Under the pieces are notes generated by a model. The model saw only the letters and a list, made by a program, of their open reading frames with translations. It was not told the DNA's origin and did no database searches. Below, piece after piece: positions 4,320 to 48,951 of a stretch of DNA of 61,457 nucleotides (positions within the stretch are counted from its first letter, which is position 1; every line of letters begins with the position of its first letter). The stretch is from IMG/VR virus record IMGVR_UViG_3300037247_000747, positions 1 to 61,457 of that record; one strand, written 5' to 3'. A program made the translations under genes and the position numbers. This DNA is from a virus (Duplodnaviria > Caudoviricetes).

Positions 4320-6329
4320 ATGGTGGACTCTTTAGTACAATTCAGAACCAACGACCAGCTTGACCAGGATGAAAGGGAGGAAGTCGCCAAAAGGGATGCT
4401 GCACAGGTGCAGGCAAGCCCTTTAGTTTCTTCCCTGACATCTCATGTTTTAAAAAGATGGGAAGCTGCCAAGACTGCAAAGCTCGAAATTGAGCGGAAGC
4501 ATATGAGAATAAAACGTATGCTTAGGGGTGAATATGAGCCTGATAAGCTGGCTAAGATCAGAGCCAGGGGCGGTGCTTCAGTATATATGCGTTTGGCCGA
4601 TGAAAAATCTACGGCATTAAAAGCCTGGTTGATCGATATCTTGTTGCCGGCCGATGAAGAACCTTGGGGAGTATCACCGACTCCTGTGCCTGATCTTCCC
4701 CCCGAACAGCATCAAAGTATCGAGCAGTCGGTGTTGGCCCTGGTAGAGCAGGATATGGCAATTGGTGTAGAGGCCACACCCGAAGATGTGGTCAACAGAA
4801 TCCAGGGCATAGCCGGGGAGATACAGCAGCAGTTAGCGGAAGCAGCAAAAGAGGTTGAGCGCAAGGTAGAGACCAAGATTAAGGATGTTATTGTAGAATC
4901 GAATTGGCGCCAGGCACTTAAAGATTTTATTTTTAATTTGGTTGATTATAAAGCAAGTTTCCTTAAGGGGCCTGTCTTTCGCATGGGAAAAGAGATTGTC
5001 TGGGATGAGAACGGATCTCCGCAGGTTGTTGATAAGATCAATATGGAGTTTGAAGCTCCTAACCCAGTGGATATGTTTCCTTCTCCTTCCTCAAAAAATT
5101 GTAATGACGGATATCTGTTTCAAAAGCATTCCCTCACACGCAAGTCCCTGGTCGCAATGAAGGGTGTGAAAGGATATGACAGCCAGGCCATTGACAACGT
5201 CCTTAGGGATTACGGAAACGGTGGATTGAAAAGATGGATATACGAAACCAGACAGAATGAAGTTGACAGGCTATCAGAACGGCCTCATGCCGAGCTTGAC
5301 CCTGAAGGTACCATTGATGCCTTGCAGTTCTGGGGATCAATTCAAGGGCTCTCTTTGCTCGAACATGGTATAGAGGTAGAAAGAGTGCCTGATCTTTTCG
5401 CAGAGTATGAAGTGGAGGTCTGGCAGATAGGAAACTATGTAATCAAGGCAGAGCTTAACGGCAATCTTTTAGGTGACAGGGGTTACTATAAGGCGAGTTT
5501 CCGGAAGAAGACTGACCAGTTCTGGGGTGACAGTTTACCCGAAGTTATAGAAGACAACTGTGATGTGTGCAATGCGGCTGCAAGGAACATGGTCAATAAT
5601 GCAGGCATGATATCCGGGCCTCAAATCGGCGTGGATAAGAATGCAATGCCAGCCGGTGAAATTATTACCAATATCACGCCGTTGAAAGTATGGCAGTTCC
5701 ATTTAGCTGATGTAGCAAATGGTGGGAAACCGCCTATCTGGTTCTTTCAGCCCAAGAGCATGATTAATGATCTGATAAAGCTTTATGAGTTTTTCAGCGA
5801 CCAGGCTGACAACCGATCCGGTGTACCAAAATACAGCTATGGTCAATCTTCCGGGGGCGGTGCGATTAACACGGCAACCGGTTTCTCAATGATGATGTCC
5901 AATGCTTCAAGGGGGATTAAGCTGGTTATCAGCAATATCGATGAAGTTATAGAAGGATCTGTCAAGGGGGTTTATACCTTCCTGCGACTGAATGATCCTG
6001 ACCCGGTTTTAAGGATGGGTGACATTAAGCTTATACCCAAGGGTTCAAGTAGCCTTGTGGCAAAAGAGCAGACTCAAATAAGAAGGAATGAATTTCTACA
6101 AACTGCTTTGCATCCTTTACTGTCACAAATAATCGGGCCGGAGGGACTCGCAAAGATGACGCGAAAAGTCGCAAGCGGTCTGGATATGGGCGGGGAGGAT
6201 ATCGTACCATCGGATGAGGATCTTAAAAGGCTGGTGCTCCAACAGGCAGGGCCACAAAACAACGGCAAGGGAACAAACACTAATCCGGCAGGTGACAGGA
6301 TGGGAGGTCAGGATGCTCGAACAGTTTAA
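4320..6329 (+). CDS. Portal protein
   Basis: 669 aa between terL and capsid; FWGDSLPE, NAAARNMVNN and TATGFSMMM motifs typical of podovirus portals. Confidence 0.88.
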   Translation: MVDSLVQFRTNDQLDQDEREEVAKRDAAQVQASPLVSSLTSHVLKRWEAAKTAKLEIERKHMRIKRMLRGEYEPDKLAKIRARGGASVYMRLADEKSTALKAWLIDILLPADEEPWGVSPTPVPDLPPEQHQSIEQSVLALVEQDMAIGVEATPEDVVNRIQGIAGEIQQQLAEAAKEVERKVETKIKDVIVESNWRQALKDFIFNLVDYKASFLKGPVFRMGKEIVWDENGSPQVVDKINMEFEAPNPVDMFPSPSSKNCNDGYLFQKHSLTRKSLVAMKGVKGYDSQAIDNVLRDYGNGGLKRWIYETRQNEVDRLSERPHAELDPEGTIDALQFWGSIQGLSLLEHGIEVERVPDLFAEYEVEVWQIGNYVIKAELNGNLLGDRGYYKASFRKKTDQFWGDSLPEVIEDNCDVCNAAARNMVNNAGMISGPQIGVDKNAMPAGEIITNITPLKVWQFHLADVANGGKPPIWFFQPKSMINDLIKLYEFFSDQADNRSGVPKYSYGQSSGGGAINTATGFSMMMSNASRGIKLVISNIDEVIEGSVKGVYTFLRLNDPDPVLRMGDIKLIPKGSSSLVAKEQTQIRRNEFLQTALHPLLSQIIGPEGLAKMTRKVASGLDMGGEDIVPSDEDLKRLVLQQAGPQNNGKGTNTNPAGDRMGGQDARTV

Positions 6330-12062: not shown

Positions 12063-13163
12063 ATGAGTATACCAGATAAAGTAGCAGCGCAGCTCAAGAA
12101 AGCCCAGGAGCTGCAAAAGAACATTGCACCAAAAGGGAACACAGACAAAGACCCTCTCACGCCGGATGATAAGAATACCTCTCCTGAATTAAAACCGGGA
12201 GATGCTCTTAAACCGGATGAGAATAAGTCGCAACCTGCTCCTTTAGAACCAACAGCAGAACCACTATCACCAGAACCAACAGCAGAACCGATCAAACCCG
12301 TAGAGACACCTGCGCCGGCTGATGATGAAAACAGCCAAACGTGGAAGCAGAAGCACAATGTCATAAAAGGCAAGTATGAAGCCGAAGTTCCACGACTGAA
12401 TACGCAGGTGACTCATCTTACCGGGCAGGTCAATTTTTTAAGCAATGAAAATCTTGGAGTGAAACAGCAACTTGAAACGGCTAATCGGCAGAATGTTGAA
12501 CTGCAAGTGGCGAAACCGGCAGAGTCGGATACAGTTAAACCCGGAAAACTGGACCCTGAAGCGTTTCGGACATTCGGGGATGAATTTGTGGGGCTGGCAG
12601 AGACATTGAACAACCTTTCGGGATCAGTAGGAGACCTGGAAGGCTCTGTTGGCTCTGTTCAATCTGTTCAAGCGGACGGCCAGAAGAAAGAGCGAGTAAA
12701 GTATAGGGATAAACTTACTGCACGAATTAAGGGTTTTGATGCCATAAACGATAGTCCGGGCTTTATCGGATACTTGCAGGCTAACCCCGTAATAAATTCC
12801 CAATTGCAGAGCTACAACGATCAGATGAACCACATCGAAGTTGCAAAGATTTTCAAGGGATATACCGACCAGGCAGGGGATACAATTATCCCTCCTGTCG
12901 AAGATCCAAAACCAACCCCAAACCCAGCTCCAGACCCGAAACTTTCACTGGAAAAAGTGTCCATTACTCCTGATGGTTCAGCGAGTCAAAGCTCAGTTCC
13001 GGACACACAGAAGCAGACTTACACAAAGGCGCAGATCAGCAAGTTTTACAATGATCAGCGAGAGGGAAAGTTCAAGGGTAAAGAGGATCAGGCTTGGGTG
13101 AAAAAAACACAGGCTGACATTTTAGCGGCTACTCGTGATGGCCGCATAATCGATAACTACTAA
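12063..13163 (+). CDS. Capsid scaffolding protein
   Basis: Pro/Glu-rich N-terminus, WKQKHNVIKGKYEAEVPRL coiled coil, C-terminal helix ending DGRI; directly precedes the MCP. Confidence 0.8.
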   Translation: MSIPDKVAAQLKKAQELQKNIAPKGNTDKDPLTPDDKNTSPELKPGDALKPDENKSQPAPLEPTAEPLSPEPTAEPIKPVETPAPADDENSQTWKQKHNVIKGKYEAEVPRLNTQVTHLTGQVNFLSNENLGVKQQLETANRQNVELQVAKPAESDTVKPGKLDPEAFRTFGDEFVGLAETLNNLSGSVGDLEGSVGSVQSVQADGQKKERVKYRDKLTARIKGFDAINDSPGFIGYLQANPVINSQLQSYNDQMNHIEVAKIFKGYTDQAGDTIIPPVEDPKPTPNPAPDPKLSLEKVSITPDGSASQSSVPDTQKQTYTKAQISKFYNDQREGKFKGKEDQAWVKKTQADILAATRDGRIIDNY

Positions 13164-23416: not shown

Positions 23417-26400
23417 ATGTTCAATATATCTCAATTTAGGCAACAAAACCCACAGTTTGCTGAAATGGACTCGTATGATCTTGCACACAAGGTCTACTCT
23501 GCTAATCCTGCGCTTCAAAATGCGGGTGTTACTTTTAATGATTTTGCCAAACAGTCGGGTGCGGATGAAGATTATTCCTCAAGAAATTCCGGGTTTGTCG
23601 ATACCGTTAAAGCAATTGGAGCTGGCTCAAAAACACTTTGGAGTCAGGTAAAAGGCTCTACTGCCTCTGCTATTCGTGGCGGTGATATCGATACCCAAGA
23701 GGGTTACGCCGATAAGGTTATCCGCGAGAATCAGGAAATCATCCAGGCTTATTTAGCAGAGTACGGGAAAAACAAGGGTGATTCCTTTCTTAACATTACT
23801 CCCAGTGATGTAGCCACAGCAATAAGCAATATGGGCTTTTCCGGTGTTGCAGCCGTTACGGGTTTAGCCGTGGGCGGTGCAACGGCGGCACTTCCTGTCC
23901 CTGGTGCAAGACCAGCGGCATACGCTACCGGTTCAGCAGCAATGGGAAAAGTAGCTTACAACATGGCAAGGGATCAGTTTACCCAGACATTCATGGATGC
24001 TGTAAATGAGGATCGAGCATCAAGGGGCACGCCTTCTTTAACAGAAGAAGAATGGCAACCAATGAAGGAAGGGCTTGACCAGAAAGCCCATGAATACGGT
24101 TTATGGGAAGCTATTCCCGAAGCAATAGGTGGTGCGGTGGGATTTAAGATCATTACTGCACCGCTGAAAGGCTTTTTAAAAAAATATTTAAAAGATGATA
24201 TTGGCAACAGAATGTTAGGCAAGCTCGTTAGTGGCGGTGCAAGGCTTGGCGCTACAACCGCAGAGCAACTTGTTGAGGAAACTATTACACAGTATGGGCA
24301 AGGCGGCATTGAGGCCGATGTTGGTTTAAGGGATGAAAGACCTACCTGGAAAGAAGCAGGCAAAGAGATTTACGGGCCAACAGTAGCATTGACAGCGATT
24401 ATGGCCGGTGGAGCTAAAGGCGCTCATATGGGGTATGAGGCCCTTACCAAAAAGAAAGCAATAACCACAAATGAACCAACAGACCTTTTAAAAGATGCTC
24501 CGATACCGGAAGCAGATCCTGGCCCTGTCCAGGACAGAGTACATGCCCCGGGTGATATTTCCGGTCCTACTCCGATGCAAGTACAGAACCAGGAAGAAAT
24601 CAACCAGGCCATGCCTGTGCATAGAAGTTCCGATCTTCTTAAAACCCATGAAGAAGAAGTAAGTGAAAAACAGGAAGCAGAACTCGAAAGTCTACAACAG
24701 TCCATGGACGATGAAAGGCAAGCTCAGGAATGGGAAGCTGAAATAACAGGACAGCAGCAGGCCGAAGCTCAAAGACAGGAAGAATTAAGGCGAGAAGAAA
24801 TTCAAAGACCGTATCCGGACACAAATGTTTCCGGGCAAATTCCAGACAAGGGTCTTGCTCATATTGTTTCCTCCGAAGTTAATGGTCAAAAAATTAAAGT
24901 TAATGTTACACCAACAGAAGCGCAAAAGCAAGCAGGAAATTATTTGAAAGGGGCAATTAATATCCAGGGCATGGAAATCTCTATTGAGAATCCAAAAGGA
25001 TCAGAGCGAACCGGTGTTGATGAAAACGGAAAAGACTGGTCTGTTACCATGAATCATCCTTATGGATACTTTAACAGAACTGAGGGCAAGGACGGTGAAC
25101 AAATCGATGTGATTGTGGGTCCCAATCCTGAAAGTGAGAAAGCATTCGTTGTAGATCAGATCAACCCAAACACCGGGAACTTCGATGAACACAAATCTTT
25201 GGTAGGATTTAAGGATAAAAATAGTGCCAGAGAAGGCTATCTATCCAATTATGAGGAAGGATGGAAAGGTCTTGGAGAAATAACTGAAACGCCTGTTGAT
25301 GAATTTAAGGCATGGATTGGTGACGGAAAAAGAAAGACATTGCCATATGCTGATCACATCGCCAAAAAAGACGAGCCTGCAGTTAAAGTGGGAGATATCA
25401 TTCATACCATGCCAGATGGATCTATTATGCCGGGTCCTGAACATAAAGGATCTGTACCCGGAAGTGAAAGAAAAGCTACTCAAGAAGATATTAATGCTCT
25501 TTTTGAACTTGGTGAACCAAAAAAGCCAAAGAAGACTCAAGGGGCCATACAAAGAAAGCTTACTGACAGCGAAATAGTAAAGACAGAAGATGTTGACGCT
25601 GTTGAAAAACTTAAAAAGAAAATTGACAAGCTTGTAAAGATTCAAGATTTAATGAATGCAGCGGATAAGATCGTTAATAAGAAAAATCTTTCATATGATG
25701 AGAAAGTAGCTGAACTTCTCGAAATAAAGGATCGAATACAAAGCATAGAGAAACAAAGAACTGAGAAGCAAGTTGAGACAAAGAAACCCTCAAAAGATGT
25801 CAAAAAACCGGAAAAACTCACCAAAAAACAAAAGGCCCTTCAGGAGTACCAGAATTATATAGGCGCTCTTTCCCCGGAACAAACAGAACTTGCCGGGGAT
25901 CTGGTTCAAGAAGACCCTAAGTATCCTTCAGGACAGGTGTTGAAGATTAAGAAGAGGTTGAAGGATGCTAAAAAACCTATTCCCAAGATAAAGCCCCTTA
26001 AGCAATCCACAAAAGGCGCAAACGTCCGAACTATCCGGGGCTATATAAACACTGTTTTAAGTGGCATAAACCCCGGAAACATGAAAGGTGAGGTTGAAGA
26101 GCTTCCTGTTGCTGCCAAGTTTCTATTTAGAAAGAGCGGTACACCCTTGGACCTGGCAGAAGAAGACCTTAAAGCAAATGGCTGGATGCATCCGGACGAA
26201 GACCTTTTATCAGAACTCCGTGACCCTGAATTTCTAAAGCGCAGGCCTATCACAAAAGAACTTGAGGACATTCCCGAAGCAGAGCTCACTAAAGCAGAAA
26301 AGGAAGTTCGAGATATCGGGAAGCAGGATATAGAAGCAGGAGAGACAGCCGAGTTTTTTGAGAAGAAAGGCTTTGAGATGGTCGGGGGCAAAGATATCAC

Positions 26401-29400
26401 TGTGGCTGACCTGAATGAAGGTGATAAAGTCTTTGCCGAGATAGATGGTGTTAAGGACGAATATACTGTCAATGGTTTGAATAAAGAAGGTGAAGTCATT
26501 TTCCAGAACGGTGTGCAAAAGGAAATCGATGTTTTTGATAAGATAAACATTGAGGCTATTAAGAGGGTTGAAGAACCAAAAGAGAGAGATTCCTTTACTG
26601 TTGAGCGGTATGATAAAGAAGCAGACGATATTGTTGACCTTGGGTTTAATCGTGGGGAATATGTAAAAGCCTTTATAAATAAAGAAAAATGGAGCAGGGG
26701 AGAAATACAGGGCATTTCTCATGCGAACAAACAAGCAAAAGTTAATAATCTTTGGTTTGGTTTTGGATCAATCTACAAAGCAAAGAAGCCCGCTGAAATA
26801 AAAAAGAAAAAAGTCCCACTATCCGAAGCAATAACCGCCGCCGAAAAAGCACCCCCTGGTGGTTTTAAAGAAGGTGATAAAGTACCCAAAGAACAAAAAC
26901 CCCTTCTTCCCCCAGAGAAACCCACTCTTTTAGAAAAACAAGTAAAGGAAGTTCCAAAACCAAAGCGTGAAAGAAAAGCCAAGGGTGTATCGGCTATTGA
27001 AGATCAACTTCTTCCTGGTATGGGGATGAACCAGAGAGGTTTGTTTGATAAGAAGAAACCAAAGGAACCGGTCAAAAAAGCTCCTGCGGTCGAAGAGAAA
27101 GAAACTCCGTTTGGCGAATCATCAAAAGAAGTTGTCGTGTCTCCATTTGAACAGGCAGTAGACAGAGTTAATAAAAAATATGCTAAAATAATCTCTCTTC
27201 CCGAAGTAACCACAAAATCTGATTTTTATTCGAAGATTGATGAATTTGAAGTCACGCCAAAGATGCTTGACACGTATCTAAAAGAATCGGATAATCCAGT
27301 TAAAGAAGCTAAAAACATTCAGTCTATTCTTGCTGATAGGGTAGGAGAATTAATTGAAACGCATAGATATGAAAGTGAAAAAGAAGGGGAGCAGTTTGAA
27401 AAAGAACTCGACGGCCTACTCAGTATTGCCAATGGTTACATATCCGAAAAGAAAGTGCGGGTTAAAACTGTACAGGCCGATACTAAAAAGAAACCCACAA
27501 AAGCCAAAGGATTACCCACAGATAGAAGAGTAGAGAAAGAAGGTGGCAGCACAGAACAATACTCCACCAGAAAAGGCGATGCTGCAGACCTTTCCCTTTC
27601 AGATATCCGATCAGCATTTAAAGGCCAGGAGGTAGGATTAGGCAAAGACGGTAATGTATGGGTTATAACGAAATCAGGCCACCGCCTTACAATAAAGAAT
27701 GTAGAATCAATCTCCGATAATGAAGCCGCTTATTCTATTGGTTATGGTAAAGCCCTGGGGGGTGATATAAAACCGAACATATCCGGATCATACCAGGCCG
27801 GTGTCATTAAGATAGTAAGATCCATAGGGGATAAGTTCACTCTTTCCCATGAGTCCGTACACTGGATGGAAGATGTAGGCATCCTTAATAAGATGGATCG
27901 GAACGTCCTTGATAATGCGGTTAAGAAAGCCGGATTTGGTAAAGGGCTCAGTGAACAGGAAGCAAGAGCCCAGTTTATAGAACAGGAGCTTATCAACCGG
28001 GATAAGTACAGAAAGACTCCTTTAGGCCGAGTATTACAAAAGATCCAAGACTTTATTGACGGATTTATCAACCTGGTCAAGAAAACCTCAAAAGGCCTGG
28101 TAAGAGAGATAGAATCAGGGAAGGTTTACGACCGTAAGGTAGGGGATAGAACATATAAAACCACTGTGCCTGCTTATTCAAAAACAGCCGGTAGGTGGTA
28201 TTCCCAGATGGAAAGGTTTCTATCTGAGAAGCTACCCGGGAAAGCCACTCCTGTCATACTCAAAGGTATGTTAAGCAACTGGGCGAAAAAGGGAGAGATT
28301 AAAGCAGAGGAATTGGAATGGAGCGGTGTTCTTGAGTGGCTGGATCAGCAGGAAGGTAAAGTCACAAAGCAACAGGTTCTTGACTTCCTGAAAGAAAACA
28401 ATGTTGAGGTTCAGGAGGTTGTTAAGGGTGATATTAAGCCTCTTGAATGGAAAGACGCTGTAAAAGGTGGAAAATTTACAGTTTCATCTAATCCAGATCT
28501 GAAAATTGAGCATCTGCCAAACGGGATGTTTACTCTTCACACCCCTGGTGGAACGAGAGATCTTCATAAAACAATCGATGCTGCAAAGCAGGCTGGGGAA
28601 AGAGTAAATAAAAACATAGCTGAGCCGGAAACCAAATTTTCTCAATACCAACTCCCAGGAGGCAAGAACTACAAAGAGCTAATACTAACCCTTAGGGGTG
28701 CTGACCTTGGGTATGTAACGCCTCAATTCCATCAGTATGGTGACGCTGCCGATAAAAATCGTTTGGCATGGGTTCGCTTCAATGAAAGAACAGACTCAGA
28801 AGGAAACAAGGTTCTTTTTATAGAGGAAATTCAGAGCGATTGGCACCAGGAGGGGAGGAAGAAGGGGTACGGAGAAACTGACACAACAGGCTGGAAAGTC
28901 CTTCAGGATGAAAGTGTTGAAGGTAAGTGGGATGTCTTCGATAAAGATGGGCGGGTAGTATATTCGGCTAGTGGCCTTGGTAAAGAAGAAACCCTTAGGC
29001 TTGGAAAAGCAAGCGCCTTACAACCTGGTGTCCCCGATGCCCCCTTCAAAAAAACATGGCCAATAATGACAATGAAAAGAATGGTCAGGCACGCTACTGA
29101 AAACGGGTTTGATAAGATAGCATGGACTACCGGAGAAATGCAGGCTGATAGGTATGATTTGAGTAAGCAGGTTACGAAAATAGAAACATTCGGTAGAACA
29201 GATGCCAAGACAGGAGAAAAAACAAAAACTGTCGAAATACTTCCTGTAGGGCGTGTGCTTCCAATAACTTTAGGTGTAGATAACAACGGGGTTATTGATA
29301 ATTCGCCAGAAGTCACAGCGTATTTGGGTAGACCGTTAGAAGAGGTTATAGGCAAAGAGCTGGCTGAAAAAATTATTAAGGGGCCACCGTACCAAGAATA

Positions 29401-32389
29401 TTCCGGCCTTGACCTCAAAGTCGGCGGTGAAGGCATGAAAGCCTTTTATGATAAGATCCTTCCGTCTATGGTCAATAAGTTTTTCAATAAGCCGGTGTGG
29501 GGGAAAGCGAAGGTTGGAACTACTGGTATTTTAACATCAGACATAACCATTGCGGAAACAATTAATGGCGATTATATCGTAGAAACTAAAGGCGATAGGT
29601 ATTTTTATACGGGAAAAAAAGAACAGCGCTGGTCTTCTCATGAAGAAGATGCGATGGTTTTCAATACCAAACCCGAGGCTATGGCAGAGTTGAAAATCGT
29701 TAATAAAGACATTGCTTATTCCGCAACCGTCCACTCCCTCCCCATAACCCCAGAAATGCGCTCCAAAGCATTACGTGAGGGCATGCCTCTATTCTCCATT
29801 AAAAAGCCGGATATCATTCAAGAGAAGTTTGGGAAATCAACAAAAAGCGCAGGGGAAAAGATAGGCGGCGCCCTGGACACCATAAAAACTAAAGATAAAA
29901 GATCCGATTTAAAGTCATCCATTATTACCAAAGTCTTTGACCGATTAGAGCCCATCAACAAACATGATCTGTCAAAGGTGTCCTACATGCTCCACAGGCT
30001 TGAAACAGGATTCCAGGCTACCTTTGCTATGTTCCTCGAGCATGGCAAGTTGTCATGGAAAGAAGATGCTATGACGGTCACAACAAAAAATAAAGGTGTT
30101 CTTCCTTTCCTCCGGAGTATAGGGCCGGATTGGGAAAAGCTGTTATACTGGACAGCAGCTAAAAGGGCAGAAGTTCTGGAAACTGAGGGCCGGGAAAAAT
30201 GGCTTGATAAAACCGCCCGAGACAAGATTTTTAAATGGACAAATGAGAAACATGATGATGCATATTGGGAAAAACAAAATAAAAAGCTTCAAGAGTTTAA
30301 TTCTAATGTATTGGACATTGCCCAGGAAGCCGGTCTTATTGATCCGTTAAGCCGTAATGCCTGGCAGCAGGATTTCTATATTCCTTTTTACAGGATATTT
30401 GAAGATGAAGCGGCAAGACAGGAATTTCTATCTGCTCCCAGGTGGTCGAAGAAAAATATAACTTCCGGTATAAAAAGACTTAAAGGCGCCGAACAAACCA
30501 TAGGCGATCCTGTTGAAAACATCCTGCATAACTGGATGCACCTAATACATGAGTCTATGAGAAATAAAGCCAGGGCAGAGGCTTTTGATTCAGCCATAGC
30601 CACTGACAACACAAGCATTACTCCTGTCGATGAAGTGTTTTCTAATAAGAATTTAAGAAAGATGGCAAGAGACAAGGGAGCCTGGAAGCAGGGAATGAAA
30701 CGCCCGGAATTGATTGAGGCTGTCTTTGGTGATCCTGACTATGAACTTCCAAACCCATGGGCCACACAGAAGCAACGTGAAGCGGATAACGTCCTGACTT
30801 TCAGAAGGGAAGGCAAGCCGGTATATTTCAAGGTTAACGATCCTGAACTGTTCAATGCCCTTTCAAATCTTGATACTTCCAAGATGGATAACATCTTACT
30901 GAGGATGATGGGCAAATCAAAACAGCTACTTTCCTTTGGAGCTACTTTCAGCGCAGGCTTTAGGATTGCAAACCTTTTAAGGGATACGCTCCACACATCT
31001 ATTGTTTCCAAAGACTTTACACCCTTTCTTGATTCTGCAAAGGGCTTTGTGAAATCCATGAGGGAAGATCAGGACTTTATAGAGTTCATGGCTTCCGGGG
31101 CAGGGTTTGGTTCCTCCTATGTTCATTCAGACGATCCGAACATAGGGGCAAAGTATATTAAGCGGGTTTTAAAGAGTGAAATGAGCGCAAGCCACATACT
31201 CGATACGCCTAAGAAGCTGTGGGACTTCTGGGAAAAACTCGGTTCCGCTTCTGAAAATGCTGCAAGGGTCATGCTTTATAAGAACAGTTTGGAAAGAGGT
31301 AAAACCAACCTGGAAGCTGCATTTGAAGCAAGGGACATTATGGACTTTACAATGAAGGGTGGGTCCGGGACTGTTCAATTCCTGATTCAGACAATTCCTT
31401 TTTTAAATGCCAGGATGCAGGGTATATACCGATTAGGCCGGGGCTTTCAAGAGGACAGGAAGTCTTTTACAATTAAAGGTTTAATGCTGACAGCAGCCTC
31501 ATTGTCTTTATGGGCTCTTTTTAAAGATGATGATAGATACAAGGAGTTGGAGGATTGGGACAAACGAGCATATTATCATTTCTGGATTGGTGAGATGCAT
31601 TACAAAATACCAAAGCCTTTTGAAACAGGTGTGATCTTTTCATCCTTTCCGGAAGAACTTGGAAACATTATAAACGGGACCGATGATGGAAAGCATATCA
31701 TGGACTTTTTAGGGTATGCTTTAAACGATGTTTTCAGGCTTGAATTTCCCCAGGCCGTTAAACCCATAATCGAACAATGGGCTAATAAATCTTTCTTTAC
31801 TGACCGGCCAATAATAGGAAGGGGTATGGAAGGATTAGAGCCAGGACAGCAGTACACGCCATGGACAAGTAAATCCTTAAGGGTATTAGGGGATAAGCTG
31901 AACGTATCTCCTAAACGTGCTGAGGCTCTTGTGAACGGGTATACTGCGGCATTCGGTACATTTGTATTGTACGGTGCTGATAAACTCGCATATTACCTTT
32001 ATGACTTTCCGGAAGATCCTGAGAAATCAATAAGCGATGTGGAAGGCATAGGCCGGTTTGTAAAAGAGGGACCGGCAAGGCATACAAAATATGCAACTGC
32101 ATTCTATGAAACCGCGCGGGAAGTTGACATGCTGGCTAAAACTATCAGGCACTATCAAGTGACAGGCCAGCACTTGAAGGCCAAAAGCCTTAAAGAAAAG
32201 AATAAAGACCTGCTCAAAATCCGGAAAGGGTTAAACAGGACCAGGAAAACACTTTCTAAAATAAATAAGCAGATCCGGTTTATATCAGTGGGTAATCTAT
32301 CTCCTAAAGAAAAAAGACAGAGGATAGATAAGCTGACTGAGAAAAGGAATGAATTGGTTAAGAGGGTTTGGGAGGTTGTGCATTCTTAA
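23417..32389 (+). CDS. Giant polyvalent internal virion protein (InPase, HExxH metallopeptidase-like and C-terminal LPD38-like domains)
   Basis: IENPKGSER...YGY...GKDGEQIDV...FDEHK; HESVH; EEIQSDW; IPFLNARMQG...IPKPFETG...NKSFFTDRPI. Confidence 0.85.
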   Translation: MFNISQFRQQNPQFAEMDSYDLAHKVYSANPALQNAGVTFNDFAKQSGADEDYSSRNSGFVDTVKAIGAGSKTLWSQVKGSTASAIRGGDIDTQEGYADKVIRENQEIIQAYLAEYGKNKGDSFLNITPSDVATAISNMGFSGVAAVTGLAVGGATAALPVPGARPAAYATGSAAMGKVAYNMARDQFTQTFMDAVNEDRASRGTPSLTEEEWQPMKEGLDQKAHEYGLWEAIPEAIGGAVGFKIITAPLKGFLKKYLKDDIGNRMLGKLVSGGARLGATTAEQLVEETITQYGQGGIEADVGLRDERPTWKEAGKEIYGPTVALTAIMAGGAKGAHMGYEALTKKKAITTNEPTDLLKDAPIPEADPGPVQDRVHAPGDISGPTPMQVQNQEEINQAMPVHRSSDLLKTHEEEVSEKQEAELESLQQSMDDERQAQEWEAEITGQQQAEAQRQEELRREEIQRPYPDTNVSGQIPDKGLAHIVSSEVNGQKIKVNVTPTEAQKQAGNYLKGAINIQGMEISIENPKGSERTGVDENGKDWSVTMNHPYGYFNRTEGKDGEQIDVIVGPNPESEKAFVVDQINPNTGNFDEHKSLVGFKDKNSAREGYLSNYEEGWKGLGEITETPVDEFKAWIGDGKRKTLPYADHIAKKDEPAVKVGDIIHTMPDGSIMPGPEHKGSVPGSERKATQEDINALFELGEPKKPKKTQGAIQRKLTDSEIVKTEDVDAVEKLKKKIDKLVKIQDLMNAADKIVNKKNLSYDEKVAELLEIKDRIQSIEKQRTEKQVETKKPSKDVKKPEKLTKKQKALQEYQNYIGALSPEQTELAGDLVQEDPKYPSGQVLKIKKRLKDAKKPIPKIKPLKQSTKGANVRTIRGYINTVLSGINPGNMKGEVEELPVAAKFLFRKSGTPLDLAEEDLKANGWMHPDEDLLSELRDPEFLKRRPITKELEDIPEAELTKAEKEVRDIGKQDIEAGETAEFFEKKGFEMVGGKDITVADLNEGDKVFAEIDGVKDEYTVNGLNKEGEVIFQNGVQKEIDVFDKINIEAIKRVEEPKERDSFTVERYDKEADDIVDLGFNRGEYVKAFINKEKWSRGEIQGISHANKQAKVNNLWFGFGSIYKAKKPAEIKKKKVPLSEAITAAEKAPPGGFKEGDKVPKEQKPLLPPEKPTLLEKQVKEVPKPKRERKAKGVSAIEDQLLPGMGMNQRGLFDKKKPKEPVKKAPAVEEKETPFGESSKEVVVSPFEQAVDRVNKKYAKIISLPEVTTKSDFYSKIDEFEVTPKMLDTYLKESDNPVKEAKNIQSILADRVGELIETHRYESEKEGEQFEKELDGLLSIANGYISEKKVRVKTVQADTKKKPTKAKGLPTDRRVEKEGGSTEQYSTRKGDAADLSLSDIRSAFKGQEVGLGKDGNVWVITKSGHRLTIKNVESISDNEAAYSIGYGKALGGDIKPNISGSYQAGVIKIVRSIGDKFTLSHESVHWMEDVGILNKMDRNVLDNAVKKAGFGKGLSEQEARAQFIEQELINRDKYRKTPLGRVLQKIQDFIDGFINLVKKTSKGLVREIESGKVYDRKVGDRTYKTTVPAYSKTAGRWYSQMERFLSEKLPGKATPVILKGMLSNWAKKGEIKAEELEWSGVLEWLDQQEGKVTKQQVLDFLKENNVEVQEVVKGDIKPLEWKDAVKGGKFTVSSNPDLKIEHLPNGMFTLHTPGGTRDLHKTIDAAKQAGERVNKNIAEPETKFSQYQLPGGKNYKELILTLRGADLGYVTPQFHQYGDAADKNRLAWVRFNERTDSEGNKVLFIEEIQSDWHQEGRKKGYGETDTTGWKVLQDESVEGKWDVFDKDGRVVYSASGLGKEETLRLGKASALQPGVPDAPFKKTWPIMTMKRMVRHATENGFDKIAWTTGEMQADRYDLSKQVTKIETFGRTDAKTGEKTKTVEILPVGRVLPITLGVDNNGVIDNSPEVTAYLGRPLEEVIGKELAEKIIKGPPYQEYSGLDLKVGGEGMKAFYDKILPSMVNKFFNKPVWGKAKVGTTGILTSDITIAETINGDYIVETKGDRYFYTGKKEQRWSSHEEDAMVFNTKPEAMAELKIVNKDIAYSATVHSLPITPEMRSKALREGMPLFSIKKPDIIQEKFGKSTKSAGEKIGGALDTIKTKDKRSDLKSSIITKVFDRLEPINKHDLSKVSYMLHRLETGFQATFAMFLEHGKLSWKEDAMTVTTKNKGVLPFLRSIGPDWEKLLYWTAAKRAEVLETEGREKWLDKTARDKIFKWTNEKHDDAYWEKQNKKLQEFNSNVLDIAQEAGLIDPLSRNAWQQDFYIPFYRIFEDEAARQEFLSAPRWSKKNITSGIKRLKGAEQTIGDPVENILHNWMHLIHESMRNKARAEAFDSAIATDNTSITPVDEVFSNKNLRKMARDKGAWKQGMKRPELIEAVFGDPDYELPNPWATQKQREADNVLTFRREGKPVYFKVNDPELFNALSNLDTSKMDNILLRMMGKSKQLLSFGATFSAGFRIANLLRDTLHTSIVSKDFTPFLDSAKGFVKSMREDQDFIEFMASGAGFGSSYVHSDDPNIGAKYIKRVLKSEMSASHILDTPKKLWDFWEKLGSASENAARVMLYKNSLERGKTNLEAAFEARDIMDFTMKGGSGTVQFLIQTIPFLNARMQGIYRLGRGFQEDRKSFTIKGLMLTAASLSLWALFKDDDRYKELEDWDKRAYYHFWIGEMHYKIPKPFETGVIFSSFPEELGNIINGTDDGKHIMDFLGYALNDVFRLEFPQAVKPIIEQWANKSFFTDRPIIGRGMEGLEPGQQYTPWTSKSLRVLGDKLNVSPKRAEALVNGYTAAFGTFVLYGADKLAYYLYDFPEDPEKSISDVEGIGRFVKEGPARHTKYATAFYETAREVDMLAKTIRHYQVTGQHLKAKSLKEKNKDLLKIRKGLNRTRKTLSKINKQIRFISVGNLSPKEKRQRIDKLTEKRNELVKRVWEVVHS

Positions 32390-47952: not shown

Positions 47953-48333
47953 TTAGCCATGTTGTTTACTAAATCCTTGTCGTTTAAATCCTGTCATTTC
48001 ATGATATTCTTTTAGCAATTCATTCATATTATCTTCAGGATTTACGCAATATTTTAATTCAATTAGATTCATTGCTATTTCAGCACATTTTTCACAGTGA
48101 TAATATGGCGCAATTTGTACAATATCACCGGAAATCCTTTCTTCTATATCAGAAAGAGGACGCCTACACCTTTCGAATTCGATACAGCAAGCTCCTATAT
48201 CTATTAGTTCATCACAGCTCTTACATCTTTTTCTCCGCTTCCTATTCAAAGTTGTAAAATCATCAGGATAATAATACCATTCCTCAAAATCATCTTGATC
48301 TTGATCAAAATCACAACTGCATGATAAACTCAT
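47953..48333 (-). CDS. Cys-rich hypothetical protein
   Basis: CSC, CKSC and CEKC motifs; AAGGA RBS. Confidence 0.6.
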   Translation of the reverse strand: MSLSCSCDFDQDQDDFEEWYYYPDDFTTLNRKRRKRCKSCDELIDIGACCIEFERCRRPLSDIEERISGDIVQIAPYYHCEKCAEIAMNLIELKYCVNPEDNMNELLKEYHEMTGFKRQGFSKQHG

Positions 48334-48375
48334 AACAATTCCTTAAACATACCTTTCCTCCTGATTTTTAAAGGT

Positions 48376-48509
48376 TGGGCCAACAAGAGATTCGAACTCC
48401 TAACCTTCTTCAAAACGGTCTTACAGAGAGCCTACCTTGTAAGAATGGATTTTTTAAGGCTATCCATGTATACAGTTTACTCAAAGGCCTGCACCGAGCA
48501 TGTTGACCC
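48376..48509 (-). ncRNA. tRNA-like RNA with extra arms
   Basis: Acceptor-like stem GGGTCAAC/GTTGGCCC, T-arm AGGAG-TTCGAAT-CTCTT and three internal hairpins. Confidence 0.65.
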
Positions 48510-48674
48510 ATATGTATTGTTTAATCAGATTAATAATCACCCTTTACTGATCCGCTATATAATAGCAGATGCTTCAAGGATTGCCAATTTTCCAGAGTTT
48601 ACATTACAACACTTTCTGTTGAGATAACTGTTCGGGCCTGTACTTTGGCTTGATTACTTTTGATCATGTGTGTC

Positions 48675-48702
48675 AGTTTACATCATGTTAACGTGATGTC
48701 AA
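48675..48702 (-). promoter_or_regulatory. Leftward sigma70-type promoter overlapping a near-palindromic operator
   Basis: TTGACA-16-TAAACT on the minus strand; the spacer is part of acatcatgttaacgtgatgt. Confidence 0.7.
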
Positions 48703-48730
48703 GTACAAAATAGCATGTTGTTAATATTTC

Positions 48731-48759
48731 TTGACATGCTTTTATTTGTGTTTTAGGAT
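48731..48759 (+). promoter_or_regulatory. Rightward sigma70-type promoter (probably leaderless transcript)
   Basis: TTGACA-17-TAGGAT, with only 6 nt before ATG 48766. Confidence 0.75.
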
Positions 48760-48765
48760 CTGCCT

Positions 48766-48951
48766 ATGAAATTTCATAAATACGTAAAACAAACAGGAAA
48801 GAAGCGATCTGTTGTGGCCAAGGAACTTAATATCTCAAAACCATACTTATCTATGCTTTTAAACGGCAAGAGAAAGCCCTCAGCAGATCTATGCGTAAGG
48901 ATAGAGGACTGGTCAAAGATGGACGTCATTTCCCGGGAACTAAGAAGATAA
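48766..48951 (+). CDS. Cro-like XRE HTH regulator
   Basis: VAKELNISKPYLSMLLNGKRKPS. Confidence 0.85.
   Translation: MKFHKYVKQTGKKRSVVAKELNISKPYLSMLLNGKRKPSADLCVRIEDWSKMDVISRELRR

What the first reader, a model, noticed from the sequence alone, without database searches (positions are those of the whole stretch)
48376..48509. 134-nt tRNA-like RNA with an 8/5 acceptor-T fold, extra arms and possible kissing loops
Seen on the minus strand: GGGTCAAC pairs with GTTGGCCC followed by A, directly after a canonical T-arm (AGGAG TTCGAAT CTCTT). Between them are three hairpins: tgctcgg/ttgagta (D-arm-like), atggat/atccat and tcttaca/tgtaaga. The loops of the last two carry complementary AGCCT and AGGCT. 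There is no normal 7-nt anticodon loop and no encoded CCA. It is the first clear element after the leftward promoter, where a repressor gene would usually be. Known: an 8/5 fold occurs in bacterial tRNA-Sec; RNase P-processed phage RNAs (P4 CI, P1 C4) mediate immunity; YrlA RNAs mimic tRNA. Inference: a new tRNA mimic acting as a decoy for anticodon nucleases or tRNA-targeting toxins, or as a regulatory RNA.
Basis: partly seen in the sequence, partly recalled or inferred. Interest (0 to 1): 0.78.

Follow-up and report, generated by a model that had tools for sequence, protein, structure and literature searches.

The report
Anticodon-less tRNA-like leader RNA in phage
At the start of a phage's early gene block lies a 133-base element that keeps the upper half of a transfer RNA but has no anticodon, so it is probably cut out by the host's tRNA-trimming enzymes and does not decode.

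Summary
On the minus strand at 48509..48377 an 8-bp acceptor-like helix (GGGTCAAC/GTTGGCCC) directly abuts a canonical T-arm (AGGAG-TTCGAAT-CTCTT). The three inner hairpins exist. There is no 7-nt anticodon loop and no encoded CCA.

The acceptor plus T-arm combination occurs once in the window, against 0.017 expected per simulated window. ARAGORN and Rfam, including the tRNA model at E<=10, do not call it.

No sequence homolog was found. Two positional analogs turned up in other uncultured phages that carry the same neighbouring zinc-ribbon gene: L070 and G007. Both are 106-nt elements that ARAGORN misses and Rfam's tRNA model scores at 33 to 37 bits. L070 shares TTGAAGAAG just before the T-arm and the same order of modules. 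G007 shares the G-1:C73 end typical of tRNA-His.

The kissing loops are not conserved, and their complementarity is near chance.

My best reading, at confidence 0.4, is a tRNA-derived, non-decoding element co-transcribed at the head of the leftward early operon and cut by RNase P and RNase Z or E. Decoy or mimic, relic and chance remain as rivals. No expression data exist.

The parts
48559..48587 (-). Promoter-like site TTGGCA-17-TATTAT with a TG extension. The transcript would start about 43 nt before the element.
   Evidence: This is a consensus match only; there are no transcript data.
48377..48509 (-). The tRNA-like element, from G-1 to C73 (133 nt).
48502..48509 (-). 5' strand of the acceptor-like helix, GGGTCAAC. 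The first G pairs with C73, which is a tRNA-His-type G-1:C73 end.
   Evidence: G-1/C73 occurs in 2 of 95 ARAGORN-called tRNAs of my loci.
48479..48499 (-). D-arm-like hairpin GCTC / GAGT with a 13-nt loop that contains GG. It extends to 7 pairs if G.U pairs are counted.
   Evidence: Ensemble pair probability is 0.22-0.31.
48445..48467 (-). Hairpin H1, ATGGAT / ATCCAT, with the 11-nt loop AGCCTTAAAAA.
   Evidence: Pair probability is 0.27.
48419..48444 (-). Hairpin H2, TCTTACA / TGTAAGA, with the 12-nt loop AGGTAGGCTCTC. It abuts H1 with no linker.
   Evidence: Pair probability is 0.52.
48405..48413 (-). TTGAAGAAG motif, 3 nt before the T-stem. L070 has it in the same place, and so do L217 and a canonical tRNA-Pro.
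48385..48401 (-). T-arm AGGAG TTCGAAT CTCTT.
   Evidence: Pair probability is 0.78.
48377..48384 (-). 3' strand of the acceptor-like helix, GTTGGCCC. The last C is the discriminator C73. No CCA follows; the DNA reads AACC.
48357..48362 (-). Shine-Dalgarno AGGAGG, 14 nt after the element.
48330..48350 (-). Six-codon mini-ORF, MFKELL*. Its stop overlaps the ATG of the next gene (ATGA).
47953..48333 (-). First long gene of the leftward operon: a 126-aa Cys-rich (zinc-ribbon-like) protein of a family confined to uncultured phages.
   Evidence: No Pfam family.
48766..48951 (+). Divergent 61-aa HTH_3 (Cro-like) gene at the head of the rightward operon.

Best explanation
The element is a tRNA-derived RNA that no longer decodes. 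It keeps the upper half of a tRNA: an acceptor helix with a G-1:C73 end, the T-arm and a D-stem. Two hairpins stand where the anticodon arm should be.

It is transcribed from the leftward early promoter as the first part of the mRNA that continues into the 126-aa gene and the recombination and replication genes.

The enzymes that trim tRNA ends read only the upper half. I therefore infer that host RNase P cuts at its 5' side, and that RNase Z, or RNase E plus exonucleases, cuts at its 3' side, 14 nt before the Shine-Dalgarno sequence.

That would remove the leader, set the 5' end of the early mRNA, and release a stable RNA of about 130 nt. I take this cis 'punctuation' role as primary. A trans role of the released RNA is the main rival.

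Shown: the sequence features, their rarity by chance, the position and orientation, the absence of an anticodon loop, and two analogs in the same kind of place. Inferred: transcription, cleavage by RNase P and RNase Z or E, and any effect on the mRNA.
For: 1. The upper half is intact and rare by chance. The descriptor gives 1 hit in the window against 0.017 expected per simulated window. Ensemble pair probabilities are 1.00 for the acceptor and 0.78 for the T-stem.

2. It does not decode.
- ARAGORN finds nothing, with or without introns.
- Rfam's tRNA, tRNA-Sec and tmRNA models give nothing at E<=10.
- Only 1 of 4288 single-deletion variants is called a tRNA.

3. Placement.
- It is on the same strand as, and downstream of, TTGGCA-17-TATTAT.
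- No terminator-like site precedes the next gene.
- AGGAGG lies 14 nt after C73.
- The ORFs on the opposite strand have no PHROG family.

4. Analogs among phages that carry the same 126-aa gene family.
- L070:1929-2035 is 106-107 nt, ARAGORN-negative, and scores 33.3 bits on RF00005. It lies between a divergent HTH gene and the operon that holds the 126-aa homolog.
- L070 has TTGAAGAAG in the same place. Of the 89 elements in my loci that were not themselves fetched through a search for that motif, L070 is the only one that carries it exactly.
- G007:52497-52602 is 106 nt and scores 36.7 bits, with a 44-nt structured insert in place of the anticodon loop. It stands at the head of a plus-strand gene block, 12-15 nt before GAGGG-ATG.
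- All 12 acceptor and T pairs are kept in both analogs. Against the window, 7 of them (L070) and 10 of them (G007) are changed on both sides.

5. The same theme recurs in the nearest early-region relative and in another record.
- L032 has a 142-nt Leu-like element 32 nt before an HTH_3 ORF.
- G034 has a 115-nt element just before AGGAG and an ORF.

6. A known precedent for the mechanism exists. [quoted passage not shown]
Against: - There is no RNA evidence at all. No RNA run holds the stretch.
- No sequence homolog of the window's element was found.
- The single-sequence covariance model scores L070 at only 16.4 bits (E 0.041), barely above a canonical tRNA-Leu at 14.5 bits.
- Homology of the window's element with L070 and G007 therefore rests on position, module order and one 9-mer.
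- G007 lacks that 9-mer, and its link to the 126-aa gene is loose: 4.9 kb away, with an opposite-strand gene in between.
- The HTH genes next to the elements are not detectably related to each other.
- The inner fold is thermodynamically ambiguous, and the whole-element z-score is -1.72.
- tRNA genes embedded in phage operons are common, so lying next to a Shine-Dalgarno sequence may mean only a compact genome.
- About a dozen further long tRNA-like genes that ARAGORN misses sit inside ordinary phage tRNA clusters. Long inserts alone do not imply a leader function.
- Position 8 is A rather than U, and the D-loop is atypical. RNase P recognition is inferred, not tested.
Confidence: 0.4

Rival explanations
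1. Trans-acting tRNA mimic. After processing, the released RNA is the product that matters. It would be an anticodon-less tRNA-His look-alike (G-1:C73) that binds or is charged by histidyl-tRNA synthetase. Alternatively it would soak up a host factor or anti-phage nuclease that reads the acceptor/T half or the 3' end of tRNAs.
For: - It is the first thing transcribed from the early promoter, which is the timing expected of counter-defence.
- G-1/C73 is present in the window and in G007, but in only 2 of 95 ARAGORN-called tRNAs of my loci, one of them tRNA-His(GUG).
- L070 becomes tRNA-His(AUG) in 105 of its 131 ARAGORN-positive deletion variants. The anticodon loop UUAUGAA is native in those variants whose deletion lies wholly in the variable region.
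- From established knowledge (recalled): G-1:C73 is the main identity mark for bacterial HisRS, and minihelices carrying it are charged.
- Phage tRNAs that neutralise tRNA-cutting defences are in print, as are defences that cut tRNA 3' tails. I saw only titles and the first lines of the abstracts for PMC11464382 and PMC12851939.
Against: - Its G-1:C73 is therefore partly ascertainment, and the independent case is G007 alone.
- L070 has U-1/A73, the commonest pair (30 of 95), and its anticodon stem has only 4 native pairs.
- Most known anti-phage tRNA nucleases read the anticodon loop, which is absent here (recalled).
- No CCA is encoded.
- No tRNA-related enzyme gene was seen among the ORFs scanned.
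- Nothing was tested.
Confidence: 0.25
2. Decaying tRNA gene. This would be a relic of a phage tRNA, perhaps one that already carried a long insert. It would have lost its anticodon arm and now have no function. The analogs would be independent relics or odd but working tRNAs.
For: - There is no Rfam tRNA score at all, whereas L070, G007 and L217 still pass the cut-off.
- There is no homolog by sequence.
- A8 replaces the near-universal U8.
- The H1 loop contains CTTAAAA, which reads like the remains of a Leu(UAA) anticodon loop (my reading).
- Long tRNA-like genes that ARAGORN misses are common in phage tRNA clusters.
Against: - Neutral decay should hit all stems alike. Here all 13 acceptor and T pairs and the T-loop consensus are intact, while only the lower half is remodelled. 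The remodelled part consists of two perfect Watson-Crick hairpins of 6 and 7 bp.
- The same pattern, with the upper half kept and the lower half replaced, is seen in G007.
- Compact phage genomes seldom keep 130 nt of dead DNA between a promoter and its first ribosome site.
Confidence: 0.2
3. Chance plus DNA-level signals. The inverted repeats would be operator-like protein-binding sites in the divergent control region, and the acceptor/T look would be coincidence.
For: - The element lies in the 432-nt control region between divergent operons.
- Short words recur there: AGTTTACAT twice, CAGTTTAC twice, AGCATGTTG twice.
- The folding z-score is only -1.72.
Against: - 0.017 expected against 1 found for the acceptor plus T-arm descriptor, before counting strand and place.
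- The three palindromes differ from each other, unlike repeated operators.
- Positional analogs exist.
Confidence: 0.05
4. Attachment-site remnant. The 3' part would be a copy of the 3' end of a host tRNA or tmRNA, kept as a phage attP.
For: Phage attP sites often hold the T-arm and 3' acceptor strand of a host tRNA (established knowledge, recalled).
Against: - There is no tyrosine integrase or serine recombinase in the window.
- The record is complete, with direct terminal repeats.
- The 24-mer spanning the T-arm and acceptor has no exact match in one genome of each of 185,579 species.
- A matching 5' acceptor strand is present, which an attP does not need.
Confidence: 0.03

Closest known systems
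Plant-mitochondrial t-elements (and, recalled, the mascRNA module of MALAT1): tRNA-like structures inside longer transcripts, used as RNase P / RNase Z cleavage signals
   Same: It is a tRNA-like fold without decoding capacity, embedded in an mRNA next to a coding region, and its upper half is the conserved part. Role of t-elements as stated in the abstract of PMC1920247.
   Different: It is in a bacteriophage, at the 5' head of an early operon. Cleavage is not shown. It has a G-1:C73 end and two extra hairpins. There is no sequence relation.
Bacterial tRNA-His (8-bp acceptor helix through G-1:C73) and tRNA-Sec (8/5 fold)
   Same: There are 8 + 5 stacked pairs. G-1 pairs with C73, as in tRNA-His.
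   Different: There is no GUG or UCA anticodon and no anticodon arm. It has neither the 6-bp D-stem nor the 4-nt D-loop of tRNA-Sec. No Rfam tRNA or tRNA-Sec hit.
Insert-bearing tRNA-like genes of uncultured phages found here (L070, G007, L217, L032, G034 and members of tRNA clusters in L140, L172, L221)
   Same: They are 95-150 nt long and have an intact acceptor and T-arm. ARAGORN misses them, and a structured insert occupies the lower half. L070 and G007 share the leader position.
   Different: Those that were scanned with RF00005 and are reported as hits score 29.7-46.8 bits on it (L070, G007, L217, G034), and several encode CCA or sit in tRNA clusters. The window's element scores nothing and stands alone in its genome.
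tmRNA, YrlA/Y RNAs, and the RNase P-processed phage RNAs P4 CI and P1 C4
   Same: They are tRNA mimicry or RNase P substrates carried by bacteria and phages (recalled).
   Different: - Nothing in Rfam release 15 matched at E<=10 in the 501-nt region, and ARAGORN's tmRNA search finds nothing.
- There is no tag reading frame.
- The ends are at the acceptor. In YrlA they are at the opposite pole (recalled).
- No Ro/Rsr-like gene was seen among the scanned ORFs.
Phage T4 'species 1' and 'species 2' stable RNAs of the tRNA cluster (recalled; my search did not retrieve them)
   Same: They are phage-encoded stable RNAs of about 120-140 nt with tRNA-like ends, processed with the tRNAs, of unknown function.
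   Different: They lie in a tRNA cluster, not in an operon leader. I could not compare sequences.

Membership tests
Canonical tRNA (Rfam RF00005 / ARAGORN) | 7-bp acceptor stem followed directly by a 5-bp T-stem with a 7-nt T-loop (TTCRANN, G53-C61) | tested here: met
Canonical tRNA (Rfam RF00005 / ARAGORN) | Anticodon arm with a 5-bp stem and a 7-nt loop carrying U33 and R37 | tested here: not met
   No splice of the 54-nt insert gives U33 (my reading). Only 1 of 4288 deletion variants is called, and that one in a shifted register.
Canonical tRNA (Rfam RF00005 / ARAGORN) | Score at or above the family threshold | tested here: not met
   ARAGORN finds 0 genes. RF00005 has no match at E<=10. 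The 14 control genomes all ring.
tRNA-Sec | 8/5 acceptor/T fold | tested here: met
tRNA-Sec | UCA anticodon, 6-bp D-stem with a 4-nt loop, long variable arm, family score | tested here: not met
   No UCA in either loop, and the D-loop is 9-13 nt. No Rfam hit.
tRNA-His-type acceptor end | G-1 paired with C73 | tested here: met
   Background is 2 of 95.
tRNA-His-type acceptor end | GUG anticodon; charging by HisRS | tested here: not met
   The anticodon is absent. Charging cannot be tested with these tools.
tmRNA | tRNA-like domain plus a tag reading frame and pseudoknots; family score | tested here: not met
   ARAGORN -m finds none, even at a lowered threshold. Rfam finds none.
YrlA / bacterial Y RNA | Family score; 5'/3' ends forming a Ro-binding stem; an rsr gene nearby | tested here: not met
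   Nothing in Rfam matches. The ends here form the acceptor helix. No Ro-like family appeared among the ORFs scanned, but not all ORFs were scanned.
P1 C4 / P4 CI immunity RNAs | Family score; antisense match to downstream target sites; a lysogenic phage | tested here: not met
   Nothing in Rfam matches. No integrase or resolvase. Only a 7-nt match between the H1 loop and the mini-ORF, which is chance level (my reading).
t-element-like processing signal | Cleavage by RNase P at the 5' side and RNase Z at the 3' side, within an mRNA | not testable with these tools
   Only the position within a likely transcript is shown.
attP / tRNA 3' fragment | Identity to a host tRNA 3' end, plus an integrase | tested here: not met
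Leader tRNA-like elements of phages carrying the 126-aa gene (proposed here: window, L070, G007) | Intact upper half, no ARAGORN call, structured lower-half insert, position at the head of a gene block on the same strand | tested here: met
Leader tRNA-like elements of phages carrying the 126-aa gene (proposed here: window, L070, G007) | Common descent shown by sequence or covariation in the inner part | tested here: inconclusive
   TTGAAGAAG is shared with L070 only. The covariance model gives 16.4 bits, E 0.041. MAFFT alignments of the three are poor in the middle.

The most novel reading that the evidence does not exclude
A small family of phage 'leader tRNA mimics'. These would be anticodon-less derivatives of tRNA-His (G-1:C73) made as the very first product of early transcription. 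They would be cut out by RNase P, given CCA, and charged or bound by HisRS, or by another protein that reads the tRNA upper half. They would act as a decoy or regulator during takeover, not as an adaptor. This would be the phage counterpart of the histidine-accepting tRNA-like ends of plant RNA viruses.
Probability: 0.15. Interest if true: 0.8.

Novelty: new variant of a known kind. Interest (0 to 1): 0.5.

Why it matters
tRNA genes of phages are usually read as codon-usage helpers or as spare parts against anticodon nucleases. An element that keeps only the enzyme-recognition half of a tRNA, and sits between an early promoter and its first ribosome site, points to a different use. That use would be the host's tRNA-trimming machinery acting as an mRNA-processing or RNA-release device, or a tRNA look-alike acting without decoding.

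The same searches also showed that long tRNA-like genes missed by ARAGORN are not rare in uncultured phages: about a dozen beside 120 called tRNAs in 1.9 Mb. Standard annotation therefore undercounts them.

I found no description of such leader elements in phages in the papers searched. These are full-text keyword searches of open-access papers and bioRxiv only.

Tried and rejected
**Searches for homologs or relatives**
- No DNA homolog in 50,697 phage records, for the window element or for L070.
- The 126-aa protein has no tblastn match there either.
- The exact 25-mer is absent from viral contigs, and the 24-mer is absent from genome contigs.
- Close relatives of the 126-aa and 244-aa proteins: none in viral contigs. 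None for an alignment of the 126-aa family in genome contigs.
- Terminase relatives (48% identity; five proviruses fetched in full) share no early genes and hold no tRNA or element.
- nhmmer with the element against the 50 loci of the 126-aa family found nothing.
- Covariance model R1 over the 50 whole records gave 0 matches at E<=1. L070 itself was not reported either, so this search had little power.

**Motif scans**
None of the 80 loci returned had both a 5-bp T-stem and a 7-bp acceptor partner.
- The ...RAMTC scan gave 41 hits. Three had both a T-arm and an acceptor: L203 (= L070), L217, and L229, a canonical tRNA-Pro.
- The ...RAKTC scan gave 41 hits, none with a convincing acceptor partner; the one 7-bp partner found (L265) lies 254 nt upstream.
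- L264 and L272 share a related hairpin after what looks like a split DNA-polymerase ORF. They have no Rfam hit, and I dropped them as not tRNA-like.
- The metagenome scan gave 20 hits. Only L236 has a T-arm. It is cut by the contig start and has a weak tmRNA-model match of 12.9 bits.

**Ideas dropped**
- Intron-bearing tRNA: rejected.
- Link between the 126-aa gene and tRNAs: not more than expected from my rough count, so dropped.
- The HTH genes next to the elements are not related pairwise.

**Tools and data that gave nothing**
- No RNA holder was listed for the stretch. The single run is a DNA run that may be the source.
- Supplements of papers were not consulted.
- tRNAscan-SE is not available here.
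Full report
**Setting**

The window is a complete 61,457-bp virus record with direct terminal repeats. The only sequencing run listed as holding it is a marine-sediment metagenome DNA run that may be its source.

Gene content:
- Terminase, a portal or adaptor and internal virion proteins lie on the plus strand.
- A leftward block on the minus strand, from about 48.3 kb down to 32.4 kb, holds RecT, an SMC-like ATPase, a sigma-like factor, an HNH nuclease, a helicase and DNA methyltransferases.
- A rightward block opens with a 61-aa HTH_3 protein and a replication initiator.
- No integrase or resolvase is present.

The finding lies in the 432-nt gap between the two divergent blocks.

**The observation**

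- An 8-bp helix, GGGTCAAC/GTTGGCCC, has one U.G pair.
- It is contiguous with the T-arm AGGAG-TTCGAAT-CTCTT, which has one G.U pair.
- The T-loop carries the universal G53, T54, T55, C56, R57, A58 and C61.
- The three inner hairpins and the complementary AGCCT and AGGCT loop words are there.
- There is no 7-nt anticodon loop. After C73 the DNA reads AACC, not CCA.

Read in the usual tRNA frame, the helix is a 7-bp acceptor stem plus a G-1:C73 pair. That is the arrangement of bacterial tRNA-His (established knowledge), as well as the 8/5 count of tRNA-Sec.

A descriptor for 'T-arm plus adjacent 8-bp acceptor partner within 40-260 nt' hits once in the window. It hits 0.017 times per window in 300 Markov simulations, and the T-arm alone is expected 0.31 times.

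The inner part is much less certain.
- The minimum-energy fold pairs it differently. The z-score is -1.72, with 11 of 200 shuffles as good.
- Ensemble pair probabilities are 1.00 for the acceptor and 0.78 for the T-stem. They are only 0.27 for H1, 0.52 for H2 and 0.22-0.31 for the D-hairpin.
- An alternative helix that uses AGCCU/AGGCU as ordinary stem pairs reaches 0.38.
- The cloverleaf-like structure I wrote for it has -25.4 kcal/mol, against -38.3 for the minimum.

**What it is not**

- ARAGORN finds no tRNA or tmRNA in the window. It finds none with introns allowed, and only implausible folds at lowered thresholds.
- Rfam release 15 gives no match at gathering scores.
- In the 501-nt region at E<=10 it gives five weak, unrelated matches and no tRNA, tRNA-Sec or tmRNA match, nor any other family related to tRNA.
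- RF00005 over the whole record gives nothing at E<=10, while all 14 control genomes ring.
- Removing any single internal piece does not restore a tRNA. 1 of 2610 variants, and 1 of 4288 in a wider scan, is called by ARAGORN. That one uses a shifted acceptor register and a 4-bp T-stem.
- It is not an attachment-site copy as far as I could test. There is no recombinase, and the T-arm/acceptor 24-mer has no exact match in one genome for each of 185,579 species.
- The two ORFs on the opposite strand have no PHROG family.

**Context**

- A promoter-like site, TTGGCA-17-TATTAT with TG, lies upstream on the same strand (48587-48559). No terminator-like site follows on that strand.
- Fourteen bases after C73 comes AGGAGG. 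Then comes a six-codon ORF (MFKELL) whose stop overlaps the ATG of a 126-aa Cys-rich protein.
- That protein belongs to a family of 24 other sequences, all starting M(S/G)LSC-C. It was found on 50 loci of viral contigs, and it is absent from the 50,697 deposited phage records.

**Search for relatives of the RNA**

No sequence homolog was found. Terminase relatives share no early genes.

The strict descriptor was then run over 596 kb of fetched loci, including the 50 loci of the 126-aa family. It gave four hits. Two were canonical tRNAs: L048 (Leu), and L060 (Met), which lies 23 nt before the family gene. The other two are long elements that ARAGORN does not call: L032 (142 nt) and L070 (106 nt).

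*L070* lies between a divergent Cro/C1-type HTH gene and a plus-strand operon of an ATP-grasp gene and the 126-aa homolog, which is 40% identical.
- It carries TTGAAGAAG 1 nt before its T-stem. The window has the same word 3 nt before its own.
- Among 91 distinct tRNA or tRNA-like elements in all my loci, three have that exact word there. Two of them, L217 and L229, were fetched through the word itself. Among the other 89 elements L070 is the only one.
- The order of modules is the same in both:

| Module | Window | L070 |
|---|---|---|
| Linker after the D-hairpin | 11 nt | 8 nt |
| Tail from the second hairpin to the T-arm, holding the motif | 17 nt | 18 nt |

  In both, the full order is acceptor, 2 nt, small D-hairpin, linker, two neighbouring hairpins, tail, T-arm.
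- Rfam's tRNA model scores L070 at 33.3 bits, above its cut-off of 29.

*RF00005 over the 50 whole records* found 15 records with matches. Among them were three long ones: L070 again, G007:52497-52602 (106 nt, 36.7 bits) and G034:36483-36597 (115 nt, 29.7 bits).

*G007* holds the closest homolog of the 126-aa gene (57-58%).
- Its element has a 44-nt structured insert where the anticodon loop should be.
- It stands after two small opposite-strand ORFs, 36 nt downstream of a TTGACA hexamer and 12-15 nt before GAGGG-ATG. The promoter scan did not call a site there.
- The 126-aa homolog is 4.9 kb further on, beyond an opposite-strand gene.

*Comparison of the ends*:

| Element | Base at -1 | Base at 73 |
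|---|---|---|
| Window | G | C |
| G007 | G | C |
| L070 | U | A |
| L217 | C | A |

All 12 acceptor and T pairs are kept. Against the window, 7 (L070), 10 (G007) and 8 (L217) of them are changed on both sides. That is expected of any tRNA-like pair I selected for pairing, so it is not independent proof.

Among 95 distinct ARAGORN-called tRNAs of my loci, U-1/A73 occurs 30 times. G-1/C73 occurs twice, once in a tRNA-His(GUG).

*Hidden anticodon in L070.* In the deletion scan, 131 of 2412 L070 variants are called by ARAGORN, and 105 of those are called tRNA-His(AUG). The loop UUAUGAA is native in those variants whose deletion lies wholly in the variable region. L070 may therefore be a tRNA-His-like gene with a long extra arm. 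G007 gives 266 of 2412 positive variants with no consistent anticodon.

*Nearest relative of the early region.* This is the 8.9-kb fragment L032. It shares the 118-aa, 244-aa, 212-aa, 126-aa and RusA-like genes at 40-57% identity. Its 142-nt Leu-like element lies 32 nt before an HTH_3 ORF. G034's element lies just before AGGAG and an ORF.

**Limits of the family claim**

- The single-sequence covariance model gives L070 only 16.4 bits (E 0.041 in 342 kb). That is little above a canonical tRNA-Leu at 14.5 bits.
- The same model finds nothing in the 50 whole records, not even L070.
- Alignments of the three elements are poor in the middle.
- The HTH neighbours are unrelated pairwise.
- Motif scans of viral contigs and metagenome contigs added only L217 and the truncated L236. 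L217 is a member of a tRNA cluster, has an encoded CCA and a 33-nt insert, and scores 46.8 bits.
- In 1.94 Mb of loci, ARAGORN tRNAs, and about a dozen further long acceptor/T elements go uncalled. Most of these sit inside tRNA clusters. So insert-bearing tRNA-like genes are a wider phenomenon, and the window's element is its most derived example that I saw.

**Mechanism**

Three things point to a role that needs only the upper half: what is conserved (the upper half), what is free (the lower half), and where the elements sit (between a promoter or upstream gene and the next ribosome site).

RNase P, RNase Z, the CCA-adding enzyme and the T-loop modifiers read that half (established knowledge, recalled). 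Plant-mitochondrial t-elements are the known case of such structures serving as mRNA end-forming signals (PMC1920247, abstract).

I therefore commit, at 0.4, to co-transcription and excision by the host's tRNA-end enzymes. This would set the 5' end of the early-left mRNA and release an RNA of about 130 nt.

The rivals:
- Trans-acting mimic, 0.25.
- Relic, 0.2.
- Chance or operator palindromes, 0.05.
- attP remnant, 0.03.

The kissing-loop idea is not supported. The hairpins abut, the match is near chance, and the analogs lack it.

**Novelty**

Keyword searches of open-access papers and bioRxiv turned up phage tRNAs used against tRNA-cutting defences, and t-elements. They turned up no description of anticodon-less tRNA-like leaders in phages. 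For all papers I saw only listings and abstract openings, except PMC1920247, for which I read the abstract. I rate the finding a new variant of a known kind, with moderate interest until RNA ends or more relatives are in hand.

Noticed in passing
window 47953-48333 (-); loci L029-L078: The 126-aa protein belongs to a Cys-rich family with invariant C5, C7, C37, C40, C80 and C83, and N-terminus M-S/G-L-S-C-x-C. It has no Pfam family. It occurs in many uncultured phages and in none of the 50,697 deposited phage genomes. Its function is unknown.
   Followed up: partly
window 48330-48350 (-): A six-codon ORF (MFKELL) lies behind a strong AGGAGG. Its stop overlaps the start of the 126-aa gene (ATGA). 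It may be a coupling or leader peptide.
   Followed up: no
window 48363-48374 and 48448-48459: A 12-nt direct repeat, 11 of 12 identical. The H1 loop plus the start of its stem (CCTTAAAAAATC on the minus strand) recurs as CCTTTAAAAATC in the trailer, between the element and the Shine-Dalgarno sequence.
   Followed up: no
window 48596-48604, 48675-48683, 48473-48480; also 48497-48505 and 48712-48720: Short words recur in the control region: AGTTTACAT twice, CAGTTTAC twice and AGCATGTTG twice on the plus strand. Two of the copies lie inside the element. They may be operator half-sites for the HTH protein.
   Followed up: no
window 48731-48759 (+): The promoter-like TTGACA-17-TAGGAT ends 7 nt before the ATG of the HTH_3 gene (48766). 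That mRNA may be leaderless.
   Followed up: no
L172:1943-2037, 5107-5203, 5214-5316; L221:10466-10590, 12774-12906, 13003-13152; L140:8591-8688 (-): Phage tRNA clusters hold 95-150-nt genes with an intact acceptor and T-arm and often a canonical D-arm, which ARAGORN does not call. Several carry CCA. They look like tRNAs with 25-80-nt inserts of unknown fate.
   Followed up: partly
L032:4256-4397 (-) and L274:1484-1598 (-) (= G034:36483-36597): Two related Leu-like elements begin with the class II D-arm GGCGGAATTGGTAGACG and carry long inserts. Each lies just upstream of a ribosome site and a small ORF, which is an HTH_3 gene in L032.
   Followed up: partly
L264:636-700 (+) and L272:1790-1850 (-): A shared element, ATATT(T)GAAGAAG..GTGGTTCGATTCCACA, lies after an ORF that ends just past a DNA-polymerase-like KTINFG motif in L264. 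It may be part of an intron. There is no Rfam match.
   Followed up: partly
window 23417-32389 (+): A single 2990-aa ORF lies in the structural block. I did not examine it.
   Followed up: no
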